This document shows positions 1 through 6,000 of a DNA stretch of 64,000 bases, in pieces. A program made the position numbers. The stretch comes from a virus. Taxonomy: Duplodnaviria > Heunggongvirae > Uroviricota > Caudoviricetes. The stretch is taken from IMG/VR virus record IMGVR_UViG_2718218449_000002. The stretch is one strand, 5' to 3'. The first letter of the stretch is position 1. The number at the start of each line of letters is the position of its first letter.

Positions 1-3000
1 ATGGAAAAAGACCTGAAAGAGTTGCGGGAATACCTATTACTTTCCCCCGTCTATTCTGAAATTAACGATTGTCTGGCTAGTCTCTCAATGGAAGACGTGA
101 CCAATGAAGAGTTCGCGGAACGTTTGGGAATTGCTCCTGATTGGATGGATGCTATAGATACTAGCCAACTTGCTTAAGAAAGGATGCGCCATTGCTGGGC
201 GCGTTTCTCATTTCTCCCGTAGCACTACGCATACCTTCTAATAAATTTCACCATCAAAATCAGTAGATTGATAAAATGTCACTCAAATCTGTCATAAGTA
301 TCACAATTTTTAAACCTAATTGAAATATAATGTTATTAGATATTATCTAATGGAGGTAGTTTAATGTCTTATGCGTTGATTGATAATGCTTCGTTAACAG
401 CAGTCGAAAGAACACTGGGTGATATTCTTGTTAAGAATCCAGATACTATTAACGGAGATTTAGTCGCTTTTGAAAATCTTATTCAAGCGATACTTTTTTA
501 CGATACCCTGATCTGTGTAGATAATTATAAAAAAGAATATAGAGATAAACGCATTGCTAAATTTGACTTTATTAAATTTGTATCTGAAAGTGATTTTCAA
601 CTCAGTGAACTTGATCAGTTAGCACAAGTTGAATCTCGGCAAATTACTTCCGAAATTAGAGGTGGGGAGTTTGTTGACGATGATTTTAGGCAACTTGTAG
701 AGATGCTTAAGCTGAATATGATTTGCACATGGGATCTTCGGTCTAGCGTGTATTACTTAACAATGAAAATGCTTGGTCAGCCCGGTACTCCTGAATATGC
801 GAAATATAGTGAACTAAGTGCATCGATTTTTAATGAATTATCAGATGCTTCTGATACGAAAGGGTACTGGTCAACCGATGTGAAGCTAGTGAGTTCATCT
901 GGACATGAATATACTGAGCGTGAATTTGAACTAGAAAGGGAAAAATCTACTCGCGGTAAAGGAGGTATGACTCGTTCACTTGAAATGTTTATCGCATCGC
1001 TAAATTGGTTGGCATATAAATCTATTTATTACAGCGTCATTGCTAAGCATTTTAAAGCAGACTCATTTATTCATCCAATAAGGCATGCATATCAATTGCA
1101 TTGGATGAAAAAAACAGGTGCTTTTGGTCATGATTATACTGCAAGGTTGGTGCAATCGTTGTCTGATAAAATCAGTACTGCAAGATCTGAAATTGTAGAT
1201 CATGGACGCACATCTACTATTTCATTAGATTTACCAATATTTTCTGCATGGCTAGCAAACGAAACAGGAAATGTCTCTCAAGTTATCAATTCAGCTTTAG
1301 AGCTTAGAACACATGATCATTTTCGTACGTGTCGAGATGTAATCCGAGAGATTCATGTGACCTACGATGAATCGGGGATAAGTGCAGGAAATAAAAAAGT
1401 AACAAAATTACTAAGTGATTTAGATAAAATATCTGGAGATATTAAACGAAGCTACGGTGTTCCATCAAATCAAGGTATTCAAGGCAGTTTTTTGATAAAA
1501 TGTATAAATTCATTGACAGGACTCGTGGGTATTCCAGGTTTGCCTGATAAAGAGTTTGCACTGAGCACTCCTGAATTTATGAAGTCTAAACAACATAAAG
1601 CATTTTCTACCGTTTTCAAGGATGTTACTAACGAACTAACAAGCATTGAACGTTTAGGTGGGCTTCGGGATAAATTAGCGTCGAACTTTACTATTGATGA
1701 TTCTTATTATACCGAGCCAAAAACAGAGGATCCGAGATTCCGTTACGTAAGTAGTAATTGGAAGCAGCCAATGTAGATATAGTTAAATGTATAATTATAA
1801 GTAATAACAATTTACAGACATTATTGAATTAAAAATATTGCGTTAGGGTATAATATCTAACGCAATTAGATTGAAAAGTTAATTAAATAGTTAGTCAGAG
1901 CTAACTTCTTGTATTGTTAGTTACACTGCCTAACCTACAGACAAAAAGCCCCTCAGAATTGTGCTTACGCGCTCAAATTTCACTGCTGGGGATTTTTACG
2001 TACATTCAACCCAAAAAGTGACCAAAAAAGTTCTTACAGAGTTGACGTTACGTTGACGTTGTTTTCTGAAAATGATCCCTTGGTGACTTATTTTATGTAT
2101 TTGATTTTACGTTTTTTCTTTAATGTTTTATCACTTTAAACTAACGTCAACTTATCCTTATAGAGCGATTAATTTCTATAAGTACTTTTTCTCAAAATTT
2201 GATTTTTACGGATGGAAGTCCATCAAAGAAACGTCATTTTTTTCTAAGACTTTGATCTTTCGTTAACGGTGTTAGTGGGGACTTCGGTCGTCGAGCGCGA
2301 TGCGCTTCTGACCGTTTCAATGGATAGGTTCGCCTTCTTGCGCCTCTCGCGGCGTTTGCCGCGCTCCGCGCTTTTGGCGGTTTGGCAGGCATATCTCTCT
2401 TATTATTGGTCGTTTTTTGCACCGCCTTGTCACGATCTGTCACTACTAGTAGTAATGGTCATAACCTCCGCTTTCTCTTTTGGCTCTGGATGCTCTCACT
2501 CGTGCTCTTCTTAACATCCTTAACAGTGGGTGGGTTTGTACTTTGTTCGAGTTTATTATCTGTGAGGATAGTAATTCCCTGCGCTCTGTCTCTGCCTCTT
2601 TGGTGACCGCTATCACTGATAAATCCCAATCGTGTTTGCTAATTAACGGTGCTTGGAACGGGGTGATTGGTGATCGATTTATGTCTTGTCGTTTCAATGT
2701 ACGCTGTATCTGTCGCTTAGCTTTGTAGTTGTCTTTCCTTGATGCCTGAACGGCTTTTAGTATGCGTCTTACAGCATGAAAGCCAGTGATAGAAAGTGTT
2801 TCTTTTTTTATCTCATGCCGCGCCCAGCCATTCGAATAACCCCAAACGTTGGCATCTGACCAATCATATAGGCTCTTGCTCGCCTCTCTATTAAAGTCAT
2901 TTAACTTAGTTTCGGGCTTTGCCATGTAATCAATCTGTTTACCTATACACTTTGTAGGCTCTGAATATTGCTGACCTTTCAAATCTAGATCCCACTGGGG

Positions 3001-6000
3001 AGGAACATTTGATGGGATTGCATTGTTTGCCAGTGTTACCCATTTGCTGACAATTTTGCCAGCTTGCCCATTAATGCTTCTTTCGTTCACCATGATTATT
3101 GCGTGTACATGCGGCTCTGACTGGTGTTGAGCCCACTCCATGACGTAAACCCACTGATTGCCTTGAATGAAAGCGATATTGCATCGCTTGATACCAGAGT
3201 TCAGTCGCTGGAATCGCAGGTTTCAGACCATGAAACGCGCATTAATGCTCTGGAGTATGCCACTACGCGCAAGAAGTCAGAGGTTGTTTACTCTGGCGTA
3301 TCAGTAACCATCCCGACAGCGCCGACCAACCTTGTTAGCCTGCTGAAAACGCTTACGCCGTCATCCGGGACGTTGGCACCATTCTTCGACACCGTTAACA
3401 ACAAGATGGTTGTGTTCAACGAGAACAAAACCTTGTTCTTCAAGCTGTCGATTGTCGGGACGTGGCCCAGCGGAACCGCCAACAGGTCAATGCAGCTAAC
3501 ATTCTCCGGTTCTGTTCCTGACACGCTAGTAAGCAGTCGCAACTCGGCAACAACAACCGACAACATCCTGTTAGCTACGTTCTTCAGCGTGGATAAAGAC
3601 GGCTTTCTTGCCACAAATGGCAGCACGTTAACCATTCAGTCGAATGGCGCGGCGTTTACTGCCACAACCATCAAAATCATTGCGGAGCAGTGATGGAAAT
3701 AAAGCTCATCGATAACCCGGTGAAACTTGCAGAATTCCTTAACAACCCGGTAAACACGGGGAATATCGTAGACAGTGGAGATAAATACTACATCAAGCCT
3801 GATGCGGTATATCTCGGCATCTACGAAGGATTAGTGCTGGCTGGAGTTCATGAAGTGCGTAACTTCTGGCATAGCGTTGTTGAATGCCATGCGGTGTATG
3901 ACCCCGGATTCCGTGGCGAATATGCACTACAAGGGCATCGATTATTCTGCAAATGGCTTCTCGAAAACTCACCATTCCTTAACAGCATCACCATGGTTCC
4001 TGACACCACCAAATACGGACGGGCAATTATCCGTTTGCTTGGCGCTACCCGTGTTGGTCACCTTGATGATGCGTACATGAGTAACGGAAAACCGGTAGGA
4101 ATCACCCTCTATCAATTACCTCGTTCGAAATATGAGGAGCTATTAAATGTTAGTACTTAGCGAAAGCTTCAAGAATAAATTGCTTCCCATGAATGGGTAT
4201 ATGAAAGGCGGCAGCGACTCCGGATCTAAAGCCCAGGCACGCGCAACTGAAAAGGGCATCGAACTGCAGCGTGAAATGTGGCAGACGAACATGCAAAACC
4301 TTGCACCGTTCACGCCACTCGCTCAGCAGTACGTATCACAGTTGCAGAATCTTTCCTCTCTTCAGGGGCAAGGTCAGGCGCTTAACCAGTATTACAACTC
4401 TCAGCAGTATAAAGACCTTGCAGGGCAGGCGCGCTATCAGAGTCTGGCAGCAGCAGAGGCAACGGGTGGATTAGGCTCTACAGCAACAGGAAACCAGTTA
4501 GCAGCAATCGCACCTACACTCGGTCAAAACTGGCTGTCAGGTCAGATGAACAACTACAACAATCTGGCAAATATCGGCCTTGGTGCTCTTACAGGTCAGG
4601 CAAACGCCGGACAGAACTACGCTAACAATGTCAGCCAATTGTATCAACAGCAGGCGGCAGCATCGGCAGCAAATGCGAATAAGCCTTCAGGCCTACAGAG
4701 TTTTGCTACAGGTGCCATTGGTGGGGCCGCATCAGGTGCAATGATTGGTAGTGCAGTTCCTGTTATTGGGACTGGTATTGGTGCTCTTGCTGGCGGTGTT
4801 ATCGGTGGTCTTGGATCATTGTTTTAAGGTGGGAATATGGCTACTTGGCAACAAGGAATCAACTCAGGCGGTTTTCTTGCTGGTATCGGTGGGCAAAACT
4901 CAAATGCGCCAAAGGCAAGTGATGTAAGTGAGGCGTTGGCCTATATTCGCCAGAACAACGAAATGGAGCGTTCAGGTCGCAATAACATCGGCCTTCAGGC
5001 GTTGCAGGGACTTGGTAGTGTCGCTCAAACATCTCAAGCCGCAAAGCAACAGGAAGCGGATGCTGCATTCCAAAAAGAATATGCGGCAGCCATCCAGTCC
5101 GGCGATCGACAGCAGGTTCGAGATCTGATGACCAAATATCCTGGTCAATTAGAGAAGATTCAGTCTGGTATGAAGTGGGCAGACGAAGACCAGCGCAATT
5201 CTATCGGCACCTTAGCGGCTGGCGCACGCCTTGCGGCCTCGTCTCCAGAAGCAATGCAATCATGGCTGCAAAACAACGCCAAGGAACTGGCGCGCGTCGG
5301 TGTTGACCCTAACAACGTTGCTCAGATGTATCAGCAGAATCCTTCAGGGTTTGGTGAGTTTGTTTATCACCTTGGGATGGCTGCTCTCGGTCCGATTGAC
5401 TACTTCAATGTTCAGGACAAGATGGCTGGTCGTGAGATTGACCGAGGCAGGCTGGCAGAGATAATCCGCAGCAATCAGGCCGGAGATTTTGAGTTTAAGT
5501 CAAAGCCGTCATATTTAGTTCTATCATTTGCTGAAATATCATCTGTAGTCTTTATCCTAATGTCTGTCTATATGGTGGCAAAAAGTCAAAATAGCAATGG
5601 ATTACAGTATGATGCGCTTTTTATACCATCAATGGCCTTTTCAATATTAGTGTTTTCGTTTAATGGTGGTATTATTTCAAAAATAATATCAAATAAAGTT
5701 ATGATACTTTTAGGTGATGCTTCTTTTTCATTTTACTTGGTCCATACTATAGTAATCAGTACATTGAGCAAGTTCTTTAATGTTTCTGGTCTTGGTGCTA
5801 TAAGTGTAATTAAATTTATAGTAATGGCTCTGTTTGCTTCATTATTTATATCAATAATGATGTATTTGTTTTTTGAAAAGCCAATAAACAATAAGCTAAG
5901 AAAATGGTGGAGTGGATTTAAGAATGATGTTTCAACCACTCGAGTTGAAAAAATAGAAGGCAATCAATTATAGCAATTAAAGTATGATAAGCATTTATGA

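What the first reader, a model, noticed from the sequence alone, without database searches (positions are those of the whole stretch)
1780..3141. HUH-motif fragment, basic small ORF and iteron-like repeats next to the orphan gene
The 231-aa minus-strand ORF begins with PHVHAIIMVNERSING, resembling the histidine triad of relaxases and rolling-circle initiators, but lacks an upstream Tyr motif. Next to it lie a very basic 69-aa ORF and an AT-rich segment carrying a tandem GTTGACGTT decamer with an inverted third copy. Together they look like the remains of a small mobilisable or rolling-circle replicon captured in the prophage end.
Basis: partly seen in the sequence, partly recalled or inferred. 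Interest (0 to 1): 0.45.

Follow-up and report, generated by a model that had tools for sequence, protein, structure and literature searches.

The report
Decayed rolling-circle replicon island remnant
The region is the broken right half of a small plasmid-like island that once sat at the argW tRNA gene of E. coli O157:H7: a replication gene missing its first third, and beside it that replicon's probable origin; it is genome decay, not a working element.

Summary
All the described features are present, and the three exact GTTGACGTT copies are far beyond chance. The 231-aa ORF is the 3' two-thirds (codons 112-350) of a 350-aa HUH rolling-circle Rep (Pfam REP_ORF2-G2P). It keeps the HUH motif and the catalytic Tyr motif (YMAK), which lies downstream as in Reps rather than relaxases. 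It has lost motif I, the N-terminus and its promoter.

The break is exact: rep homology ends at window 3164, and a 5'-truncated Sf6-type tail-needle gene starts at 3165. 309 complete E. coli genomes share this junction.

Intact relatives are 8-10 kb islands between argW and a 24-bp attR. Their order is P4-type integrase, AlpA, a 128-aa protein, Rep, about 510 bp of conserved non-coding DNA, variable defence cargo, a 58-aa ORF and a serine recombinase. The same Rep, 127-aa protein and non-coding module occurs on free 4.5-5.7 kb Klebsiella plasmids. A relative is the only gene of a 1.5 kb E. coli plasmid.

The 69-aa basic ORF is spurious: homologues carry frameshifts and a stop. It lies over conserved GC-rich hairpins. 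The repeats belong to a six-site array flanking an 82-bp AT-rich spacer, conserved even next to Reps 25% identical. This is most likely the origin, although that function is inferred, not shown.

The parts
2446..3164 (-). 5'-truncated rep pseudogene, equal to codons 112-350 of a 350-aa HUH rolling-circle Rep. The ORF as listed runs 2446-3141. PGAP annotates only 2446-3093 (215 aa, 'hypothetical protein' in the record read; the 215-aa protein cluster is named 'replication protein' by NCBI).
   Evidence: 97% identity over 100% of the ORF to P0001. Alignment A2. Rep homology ends at 3164. Annotation.
3103..3111 (-). HUH motif (His-Val-His of PHVHAII), the metal-binding motif II.
   Evidence: P129, H130 and H132 are invariant in 17 family members that are 19-52% identical.
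2917..2928 (-). Motif III, Y-M-A-K: the catalytic Tyr and conserved Lys, downstream of HUH (Rep order).
   Evidence: Y191 and K194 are invariant in the 17 family members.
3164..3165 (.). Deletion junction between the island's rep and the prophage's tail-needle gene, with no obvious microhomology.
   Evidence: A query spanning the junction splits into two matches, 1-120 to rep and 121-241 to the needle gene. 309 genomes carry both halves joined. Sf6 homology begins at 3165.
3165..3693 (+). 5'-truncated Sf6-type tail-needle knob gene. About 107 of 282 codons are missing. It is the edge of the IntS-type prophage remnant.
   Evidence: PF16532 E=1.7e-117. Alignment to Sf6 gene 9. PGAP marks it as a pseudogene.
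2234..2443 (-). The 69-aa basic ORF: spurious, lying over GC-rich non-coding DNA.
   Evidence: The frame is broken by indels or a stop in AR_0067, EC529, M171-1, S1-INA-02-A (stop at codon 9) and L009. No Pfam or NCBIfam hit.
2285..2379 (-). Two GC-rich hairpins (2331-2379 and 2285-2314) just 3' of rep. They are candidates for a single-strand origin or a Rep-recognition hairpin.
   Evidence: ssDNA folds have z-scores from -2.0 to -4.8 in six elements. Hairpins sit at the same place with different stem sequences in L009, L016, L017 and L020.
2237..2254 (-). Block CAAAGTCTTAGAAAAAAA, nearly invariant in the islands and in plasmids whose Rep is 25% identical. It is a candidate nick region (inferred).
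   Evidence: Alignment A7. Sequences.
2219..2238 (-). Degenerate tandem sites A1 (AATGACGTT) and A2 (TTTGATGGA), 11-bp period, same orientation as site B.
   Evidence: In L009 A1 changes to TGATGTT together with C1 and C2.
2175..2190 (.). Left arm of a 16-nt inverted repeat (AAAAAGTACTTATAGA in rep sense). It lies in a 21-bp block that is identical in all E. coli loci.
   Evidence: Inverted repeat I2, 88% complementary. Exact block found in 8 loci.
2143..2151 (-). Site B, GTTGACGTT.
2061..2142 (.). 82-bp AT-rich spacer. Its sequence is poorly conserved although the flanking sites are kept. It is a candidate unwinding or loop region.
   Evidence: 24% G+C. It diverges in alignments A1 and A3.
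2041..2060 (+). Sites C2 (2041-2049) and C1 (2052-2060): tandem GTTGACGTT with an 11-bp period, inverted relative to B and A.
   Evidence: This is the best-conserved pair, also present in Klebsiella L003 as ACGTCAACgtAACATCAAC.
2025..2040 (.). Right arm of the 16-nt inverted repeat (TCTGTAAGAACTTTTT in rep sense).
1935..2445 (-). The whole conserved non-coding backbone segment 3' of rep. Beyond about 1935 the sequence is strain-specific cargo.
   Evidence: Alignments A1 and A3. Present in 543 of 5426 complete E. coli genomes.
364..1776 (+). Cargo gene of this island in O157 (470 aa, the 'orphan gene'). It sits where other strains carry a retron III-A, a SIR2 protein or other genes.
   Evidence: PADLOC hits for the other cargos, none for this one.
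1..177 (+). Conserved 58-aa backbone ORF that precedes the island's serine recombinase. The recombinase and attR lie just left of the window.
   Evidence: attR found and seen in L001 at ~10912-10934.

Best explanation
The finding is the dead right-hand half of an argW-integrated island built around a plasmid-type rolling-circle replicon. In intact relatives the island reads: argW/attL, P4-type integrase, a 246-251-aa protein, AlpA, two small proteins, a 128-aa protein, a 350-aa HUH Rep, about 510 bp of non-coding DNA, variable (often anti-phage) cargo, a 58-aa ORF, a serine recombinase, attR.

Inferred life cycle of intact copies: AlpA and the integrase excise the circle. Rep binds the GTTGAYGK sites, nicks one strand with Tyr191 (with the metal held by His130/His132), and primes rolling-circle replication. 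The GC-rich hairpins serve lagging-strand initiation or Rep recognition. The serine recombinase resolves multimers at its own TTGAGAC sites.

In the O157:H7/O55:H7 lineage an IntS-type Sf6-like prophage integrated between argW and the island. One deletion then removed everything from needle codon ~107 through the prophage body, the middle att site, the island's integrase, alpA and the 128-aa gene, up to rep codon 111.

What remains is a promoterless rep fragment without motif I, the orphaned origin region, the cargo and the recombinase. The 69-aa ORF is a chance reading frame across the hairpin DNA.

Shown: the identity of the rep fragment, the junction, the island architecture, the plasmid relatives, the conservation of the repeats, and the non-conservation of the small ORF. 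Inferred: that the repeat region is the origin, where the nick falls, and the roles of AlpA and the recombinase.
For: Rep identity:
- The ORF is 97% identical over its whole length to the 350-aa P0001.
- P0001 scores 29.7 bits against PF23343, whose cut-off is 27.8.
- All 17 diverse family members hit PF23343, and 9 hit Helitron_like_N.
- E121, P129, H130, H132, Q177, Y191 and K194 are invariant, and T86 of motif I is nearly invariant.

Replication role:
- A relative is the only gene of the 1532-bp plasmid p4_050613 (hhalign E=4e-63).
- That plasmid's non-coding DNA is homologous to the M13 intergenic region, including the hairpin that, from my recollection of the Ff origin, holds the gpII nick site.
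- Relatives sit on 4.5-5.7 kb circular Klebsiella plasmids that have no other Rep and no relaxase call.

Shared module: the 126-128-aa protein upstream of rep is conserved between islands and plasmids.

Island structure. A 24-bp att repeat of the argW 3' end was found.

Junction.

Repeats:
- They are non-random.
- The six-site array is conserved across E. coli loci while the AT spacer diverges.
- The sites change together in L009.
- The segment is retained in Klebsiella even though it is separated from rep by cargo.
- An exact GTTGACGTT plus a TGACGTT copy, and the invariant CAAAGTCYTAGAAAA block, lie next to a Rep only 25% identical.
- Origins that lie 3' of the initiator gene, with two iteron sets flanking an AT-rich region, are the documented layout in PICIs (PMC6092414).

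Small ORF: frame not conserved.
Against: - No experiment links Rep to these sites.
- The origin assignment rests on position, conservation and analogy.
- The long-range inverted repeat does not fold better than shuffled sequence (z -1.39).
- In Klebsiella L003, sites A and B are degenerate and hairpin 2 is missing, so not every element of the array is indispensable.
- The iteron sequences do not track the two Rep clades cleanly.
- Pfam support for the E. coli and Klebsiella proteins themselves is marginal (29.7 and 27.3 bits against a cut-off of 27.8).
- The window fragment alone hits nothing.
- The deletion order (tandem integration, then a single deletion) is the simplest reading but was not reconstructed from an intermediate genome.
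Confidence: 0.8

Rival explanations
1. The HUH protein is a conjugative relaxase and the repeat region is an oriT. The island would then be an integrative mobilisable element that hitch-hikes on conjugative plasmids rather than replicating by rolling circle.
For: There is a weak match of P0001 to PF03432 (MobA/VirD2 nuclease), E=0.005. The layout of a hairpin followed by a conserved sequence also fits oriT sites. Intact islands have no packaging genes, so their transfer route is unknown. Some RCR-type Reps act as relaxases (MOB_T class; mentioned in 10.64898/2026.01.13.699239).
Against: The PF03432 score of 17.5 is below its cut-off of 24.6, and only 1 of 17 relatives hits it. The Tyr lies downstream of HUH, which is the Rep order, not the relaxase order. 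A relative is the sole gene of a 1.5-kb plasmid, so it must replicate that plasmid. MOB-suite types 11 of 13 and 17 of 19 matching plasmid records as non-mobilizable, including every record under 16 kb; the 2 typed conjugative are large plasmids. The best structural matches are replication initiators. A dual Rep/relaxase role is not excluded.
Confidence: 0.08
2. The repeats are not Rep sites. They would be operators or recombination sites for another island protein: the serine recombinase (a res or inversion site), AlpA or another small HTH protein, or the 128-aa protein.
For: The 128-aa protein, the recombinase and an HTH protein co-occur with this segment in both islands and plasmids. The segment borders the variable cargo, so it could mark a cassette-exchange site.
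Against: The recombinase has its own three TTGAGAC(A/T) repeats directly upstream of its gene, the usual position of res. The segment lies between convergent genes, so it is not a promoter region for annotated genes. Its organisation of two inverted iteron sets around an AT-rich spacer, next to hairpins and 3' of the initiator gene, is that of an origin (PMC6092414). Binding by the 128-aa protein as a Rep accessory factor is compatible with the origin reading.
Confidence: 0.1
3. The fragment is still functional. A truncated Rep (231 or 215 aa) and the basic 69-aa protein would be expressed and have been co-opted, for example as a DNA-binding regulator or an interference factor.
For: The 231-aa frame is open and identical in more than 300 genomes. 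It retains HUH and Tyr. NCBI names the 215-aa protein cluster 'replication protein'.
Against: These genomes are one recent clone, so identity says nothing about selection. The native promoter, start codon, N-terminal 111 residues and motif I strand are gone. Other strains carry further decayed versions with internal deletions (P0003 and P0004) or different truncation points fused to Rad52 or integrase fragments (P0006 and P0011). The 69-aa frame is not conserved. The 215-aa gene model is also applied by PGAP to loci where the full 350-aa frame is open, so the annotation carries no functional weight.
Confidence: 0.03

Closest known systems
HUH rolling-circle replication initiators of the ORF2/G2P type (Pfam PF23343; Ff phage gpII, plectrovirus ORF2)
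   Same: The three motifs are in Rep order: uTLT, then HUH, then YxxK. There is a profile match. The predicted fold matches HUH nucleases. A family member on a 1.5-kb plasmid sits next to an M13-like origin hairpin.
   Different: Sequence similarity is marginal. The family is tiny: 26 clusters at E<=0.001 among 1.84 billion representatives. The island's non-coding segment has no M13-like hairpin and instead carries a GTTGAYGK iteron array. The window copy lacks motif I.
Phage-inducible chromosomal islands (PICIs) of Gram-negative bacteria, e.g. EcCICFT073 (PMC6092414; PMC10085698)
   Same: Integration at a specific site, with the integrase first and an AlpA regulator after it. The replication gene is followed directly by a putative origin made of two iteron sets flanking an AT-rich region. 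The islands carry accessory defence cargo and are 8-10 kb long.
   Different: The initiator is an HUH nickase, not a primase-helicase (Pri-Rep). No capsid-morphogenesis or small-terminase genes are present. A serine recombinase is present. No helper phage is known. The island would fail SatelliteFinder's PICI definition.
Small cryptic plasmids of Klebsiella (e.g. K. pneumoniae MGH83 unnamed5, 5657 bp; K. quasipneumoniae pWP7-S17-ESBL-08_3, 5747 bp)
   Same: They share a homologous Rep (about 25% identity), a homologous 126-127-aa protein upstream of it, a homologous origin-like segment with GTTGACGTT/TGACGTT and CAAAGTCCTAGAAAA, GC-rich hairpins, and a serine recombinase plus an HTH protein.
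   Different: They are free circles without integrase, AlpA or att site. Their proteins are annotated only as hypothetical.
CPS-53/KpLE1-type IntS prophage remnants at argW, and Sf6-like (Lederbergvirus) phages
   Same: The right-hand neighbour of the finding (needle', DUF2824, ejection proteins, acyltransferase fragment, intS, argW) belongs to this kind.
   Different: The finding itself is not part of that prophage. It has its own att sites and integrase in intact strains.

Membership tests
HUH rolling-circle Rep (PF23343 REP_ORF2-G2P) | Motif II, HUH (two His separated by a hydrophobic residue) | tested here: met
   PHVHAII at residues 10-16 of the ORF. H130 and H132 are invariant in 17 relatives.
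HUH rolling-circle Rep (PF23343 REP_ORF2-G2P) | Motif III, catalytic Tyr (YxxK) C-terminal to HUH | tested here: met
   IDYMAKPETK. Y191 and K194 are invariant. Tyr codon at window 2926-2928.
HUH rolling-circle Rep (PF23343 REP_ORF2-G2P) | Motif I (uTLT strand) N-terminal to HUH | tested here: not met
   Deleted from the window copy, where homology starts at codon 112. Present in intact relatives as PYSFTFRP or PYFLTLKP.
HUH rolling-circle Rep (PF23343 REP_ORF2-G2P) | Profile score at or above Pfam's gathering cut-off | tested here: inconclusive
   The window fragment has no hit at E<=1. The intact P0001 scores 29.7 against 27.8 (passes) and P0010 scores 27.3 (just fails). All 17 relatives hit at E<=0.01, the best at 8e-11.
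HUH rolling-circle Rep (PF23343 REP_ORF2-G2P) | HUH nuclease fold | tested here: met
HUH rolling-circle Rep (PF23343 REP_ORF2-G2P) | Site-specific nicking-joining of an origin and Rep-dependent replication | not testable with these tools
   Only indirect evidence: a relative is the sole gene of a 1532-bp plasmid.
MOB relaxases (MobA/VirD2-type, PF03432) | Catalytic Tyr near the N-terminus, upstream of the His triad | tested here: not met
   The invariant Tyr is 59 residues downstream of HUH. No conserved Tyr lies upstream in alignment A4.
MOB relaxases (MobA/VirD2-type, PF03432) | Profile score above cut-off, or a MOB typing | tested here: not met
   17.5 bits against a cut-off of 24.6, and 1 of 17 relatives hit. 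MOB-suite types the small plasmids that carry relatives as non-mobilizable; 2 large records in each search are typed conjugative.
PICI phage satellites (core set of PMC10085698) | Integrase plus AlpA/MerR/Stl regulator at the left end | tested here: met
   Met in intact relatives. Both are deleted from the window copy.
PICI phage satellites (core set of PMC10085698) | Primase-replicase (Pri-Rep) module | tested here: not met
   The only replication protein is the HUH Rep. No backbone protein has a primase or helicase domain.
PICI phage satellites (core set of PMC10085698) | Capsid-morphogenesis gene and/or small terminase | tested here: not met
   No such Pfam or PHROG hits in the island backbone.
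PICI phage satellites (core set of PMC10085698) | Origin immediately 3' of rep: two iteron sets flanking an AT-rich region | tested here: met
   Sites A1, A2 and B, then an 82-bp spacer of 24% G+C, then C1 and C2. Layout as described in PMC6092414. Function not tested.
Protein-coding gene (the 69-aa basic ORF) | Reading frame conserved in homologous loci | tested here: not met
   Frameshifts in AR_0067, EC529 and M171-1, a stop at codon 9 in S1-INA-02-A, and an early stop in L009.

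The most novel reading that the evidence does not exclude
The intact relatives may be an undescribed family of minimal integrative replicons. They look like a small plasmid lineage with a gpII-like HUH Rep that acquired a P4-type integrase and AlpA. They would behave as helper-dependent satellites: induced through AlpA, amplified by rolling circle, and moved as ssDNA or concatemers by a helper. The helper could be the P22/Sf6-like phages that share argW, or a filamentous phage, given the M13-type origin of the 1.5-kb relative. These elements would shuttle anti-phage cargo through two exchange points flanking the origin. 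This would explain part of the 'integrase-only' defence islands whose mobility Hochhauser et al. (PMC10121019) left open.
Probability: 0.2. Interest if true: 0.6.

Novelty: new member of a known kind. Interest (0 to 1): 0.3.

Why it matters
For O157:H7 itself it matters little. The region is a fossil that explains three 'hypothetical' genes and one pseudogene at the argW-csc junction, and it shows where the neighbouring orphan gene came from: the cargo slot of a defence-carrying island.

Its wider value is as a pointer.
- It leads to an intact island family present in hundreds of E. coli and Klebsiella genomes. That family pairs a rare gpII-like HUH Rep with PICI-style regulation and origin layout, and it has free plasmid relatives.
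- It marks a cargo slot that holds retrons and SIR2 proteins. The 470-aa O157 gene is therefore a candidate defence gene.
- It exposes a recurrent annotation error: an intact 350-aa rep gene is called as 215 aa.

Tried and rejected
- Pfam and NCBIfam scans of the 231-aa fragment and the 69-aa ORF gave no meaningful hits.
- tblastn of the fragment against PLSDB plasmids and INPHARED phages found nothing at E<=1e-5. Plasmid relatives appeared only when more distant family members were used as queries.
- The first AF2 model, built on 5 sequences, was unusable (pLDDT 39) and was not searched.
- A profile search of PDB sequences gave only a non-significant Helraiser HUH match (E=0.23).
- Rfam found no RNA family in 1700-3300.
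- The promoter and terminator scan showed no enrichment over shuffles. Its one 'terminator' is just the tandem repeat.
- Folding the long inverted repeat as ssDNA was not better than shuffles (z -1.39).
- The res-site idea for the repeats was rejected because the recombinase has separate TTGAGAC repeats upstream of its gene.
- Literature searches for this island, for PF23343, or for an argW island with a rolling-circle Rep found no description. Moritz & Welch 2006 on the argW-dsdCXA island is not held.
- I looked for a clean correlation between Rep clade and iteron sequence. The few loci in hand do not give one.
- A resemblance between GTCAACTCTGT (site C2 and its flank) and the plasmid/M13 nick hairpin arm GTCCACTCTGT/GTCCACGTTCT was noted. 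It is too short to count as evidence.

Full report
**Where the window comes from**

The first 3.3 kb match E. coli O157:H7 chromosomes at 100% identity. In strain TR01 the annotated order is: csc sucrose genes, a DUF4942 fragment, a serine recombinase, a 58-aa ORF (window 1-177), a 470-aa ORF (364-1776), a 215-aa 'hypothetical protein' (2446-3093), a tail-needle pseudogene, DUF2824, DNA-ejection proteins, intS and tRNA-Arg. ARAGORN places tRNA-Arg(CCT) at 7467-7541 on the minus strand.

**Observation check**

- The 231-aa ORF (2446-3141, minus strand) and the 69-aa basic ORF (2234-2443, minus strand) are as described.
- GTTGACGTT is a 9-mer. Its only three exact copies in 64 kb lie at 2041-2049, 2052-2060 and 2143-2151 (the last inverted). 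By my own arithmetic about 0.5 exact copies are expected by chance (128,000 positions on both strands / 4^9); the shuffle control covers matches with up to one mismatch only.
- The DNA between the copies has 24% G+C, while 2300-2379 has 61%.

**The ORF is a rep fragment**

- Alone, it hits no Pfam or NCBIfam model and nothing in the plasmid or phage collections.
- It is 97% identical, over its whole length, to the C-terminal 231 residues of a 350-aa protein, P0001.
- P0001 reaches the PF23343 (REP_ORF2-G2P) threshold, 29.7 against 27.8 bits. PGAP calls this protein 'rolling circle replication-associated protein'.
- An exhaustive HMMER search found only 26 clusters at E<=0.001.
- Seventeen full-length members, 19-52% identical, share a nearly invariant Thr in a uTLT strand. 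They also share invariant Glu121, Pro-His-x-His (129-132), Gln177 and Tyr191-x-x-Lys194.
- All 17 hit PF23343, and 9 also hit Helitron_like_N.
- The order motif I, HUH, Tyr is that of Reps, not relaxases.

**The break**

- Upstream of the ATG only GNQWVYV is still homologous.
- Rep homology ends at 3164. Homology to the Sf6 tail-needle gene starts at 3165, at about needle codon 107 of 282.
- A query across the junction splits exactly 120/121. 309 of 5426 complete genomes carry the joined form. Others have only an intact rep or only a needle gene.

**What the intact element is**

In E. coli AR_0067, EC529 and M171-1, and in Klebsiella, the order is the same: argW, a P4-type integrase, a 246-251-aa protein, AlpA (PF05930), two small proteins, a 128-aa protein, Rep, non-coding DNA, variable cargo, the 58-aa ORF and a serine recombinase.

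A 24-bp repeat of the argW 3' end lies about 135 bp beyond the recombinase. The O157 copy of this attR is visible just left of the window.

Cargo differs by strain (PADLOC results; loci):
- a SIR2/ThsA-like protein
- a retron III-A (RT plus PRTase)
- a ParA-like protein
- pairs of unknown proteins
- in O157, the 470-aa ORF, which has no PADLOC hit

In S1-INA-02-A an intS prophage remnant sits between argW and the island. This supports tandem integration followed by deletion as the origin of the O157 junction.

Other strains show different truncations: Rad52::Rep and Int::Rep fusions, and IS-mediated loss.

**Plasmid relatives**

- Reps about 25% identical lie on a 4572-bp contig with a 30-bp terminal overlap, which indicates a circle.
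- They also lie on complete 5.7-kb Klebsiella plasmids.
- These plasmids carry a homologous 126-127-aa protein just upstream of rep (28-41% identity), a serine recombinase and an HTH protein.
- A 293-aa relative (hhalign E=4e-63) is the sole gene of the 1532-bp E. coli plasmid p4_050613.
- That plasmid's non-coding DNA is homologous to the M13 intergenic region. It includes the hairpin GTCCACTCTGTTTAATAGTGGAC, against M13's GTCCACGTTCTTTAATAGTGGAC. That this hairpin holds the gpII nick site is my recollection of the Ff origin, not a tool result.
- The family therefore does act as a replication initiator, and it is related to gpII-type systems.

**The non-coding segment**

From the rep stop (2445) to about 1935 the sequence is conserved in 543 genomes. 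Beyond that point it becomes strain-specific. In rep sense it contains, in order:
1. Two GC-rich hairpins (2331-2379 and 2285-2314). Their positions are kept, but not their stem sequences, in L009, L016, L017 and L020. The ssDNA fold z-scores run from -2.0 to -4.8.
2. A degenerate inverted site D (2261-2269).
3. The block CAAAGTCTTAGAAAAAAA (2237-2254), whose core CAAAGTCYTAGAAAA is nearly invariant, even in the plasmids.
4. Tandem degenerate sites A1 and A2 (2219-2238).
5. A 21-bp block that is identical in all E. coli loci and forms one arm of a 16-nt inverted repeat.
6. Site B (2143-2151).
7. The 82-bp AT-rich spacer, whose sequence is free to vary.
8. Tandem sites C1 and C2 (2041-2060) in inverted orientation.
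9. The other arm of the inverted repeat.

Comparative points:
- In L009 the sites change together: TGATGTT at A1, and CCATCAAC and AACATCAAC at C1 and C2.
- In Klebsiella L003 the cargo sits between the hairpin part and the iteron part, yet the iteron part is retained.
- Plasmid L017 has an exact GTTGACGTT and a TGACGTT copy between CTTATAC/GTATAAG arms.
- The recombinase has separate TTGAGAC repeats upstream of its gene, so the array is not its res site.
- The layout matches what Fillol-Salom et al. describe for PICI origins: immediately 3' of the initiator gene, two iteron sets around an AT-rich region (PMC6092414).

I conclude that this is most likely the replicon's origin. The hairpins could be a single-strand origin or a Rep-recognition element. 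This is inference, and the nick site is unknown.

**The 69-aa ORF**

In the same frame, AR_0067, EC529 and M171-1 are shifted by indels. S1-INA-02-A has a stop at codon 9, and L009 stops early. The O157 frame owes its length to a private 2-bp deletion. It is not a gene.

**Comparison with known kinds**

- The protein belongs to the HUH Rep superfamily. The window copy fails the motif I criterion because that part is deleted.
- It does not meet the relaxase criteria.
- The island works like a PICI in its regulation and origin layout. It is not one, because it lacks Pri-Rep, capsid-morphogenesis and terS genes (core set from PMC10085698).
- I found no paper describing this island family.
- Hochhauser et al. 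note that many defence islands with only an integrase have no known means of mobility (PMC10121019). Intact members of this family may be such a case.

**Verdict**

What sits in this window, however, is an inactive remnant produced by a deletion between two elements integrated in tandem. Interest is modest for the window itself, and somewhat higher for the intact family it points to.

Noticed in passing
window 364-1776 (+): The 470-aa 'orphan' ORF occupies the cargo slot that in other strains holds a retron III-A, a SIR2/ThsA-like protein or other genes. It has no Pfam, NCBIfam or PADLOC match, only a PHROG of unknown function. That makes it a candidate uncharacterised anti-phage gene.
   Followed up: partly
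window 4837-5973 (+): A 378-aa ORF begins as a phage DNA-ejection protein and ends as a membrane acyltransferase (Oac-like, ...SFYLVHTIV...). This looks like a second internal deletion in the IntS prophage remnant, fusing two genes. PGAP annotates it simply as 'phage DNA ejection protein'.
   Followed up: no
window 6148-7341 (-) and 7662-8906 (+), around tRNA-Arg 7467-7541: Two different tyrosine integrase genes flank argW. IntS lies on the tRNA's 3' side, and the integrase of a lambdoid prophage (DUF1627, MT-A70, Ant, Ea22...) lies on the 5' side. At least three mobile elements have therefore used or abutted this one tRNA locus in O157.
   Followed up: no
L011 4963-6015, L012 and L013 (annotated 5368-6015): In EC529 (L011) the full 350-aa rep frame is open, yet PGAP annotates only the last 215 aa as 'replication protein'. 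M171-1 (L012) and S1-INA-02-A (L013) carry the same 5368-6015 gene model, but I did not read their frames. The model apparently spreads from the truncated O157 protein cluster.
   Followed up: partly
L019 (NZ_CP028467.2, 1532 bp), 895-1532: A 1.5-kb E. coli plasmid has one gene (an HUH Rep of this family) and a non-coding half homologous to the M13 intergenic region, including the hairpin that holds the gpII nick site in Ff phages (as I recall the origin). It looks like a natural miniature relative or satellite of filamentous phage. Similar plasmids of about 1.52-1.53 kb exist in other E. coli.
   Followed up: partly
L003 11044-13160 versus L010 13502-14300: Cargo sits at two different points of the backbone. 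In Klebsiella it lies between the GC-hairpin part and the iteron part. In E. coli it lies after the iteron part. The origin region is thus flanked by two cassette-exchange hot spots.
   Followed up: partly
L001 11700-11830 (just left of window position 1) and L003 13640-13800: Three copies of TTGAGAC(A/T)/GTCTCAA lie in the divergent region between the serine recombinase gene and the 58-aa ORF. They are probably the recombinase's own res-like site.
   Followed up: no
window 1837-1866: A perfect 10-bp inverted repeat (ATTGCGTTAG, 10 nt, CTAACGCAAT) lies in very AT-rich DNA, 60 bp after the stop of the 470-aa ORF. It belongs to the cargo, not to the conserved backbone. It may be the cargo gene's terminator, but no T-run follows it.
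   Followed up: no
P0006 and P0011: Other E. coli genomes encode chimeric ORFs: Rad52-family N-terminus::Rep C-terminus, and integrase N-terminus::Rep C-terminus. The 5' part of this rep gene has therefore been deleted independently several times, while the origin, cargo and recombinase side is kept.
   Followed up: no
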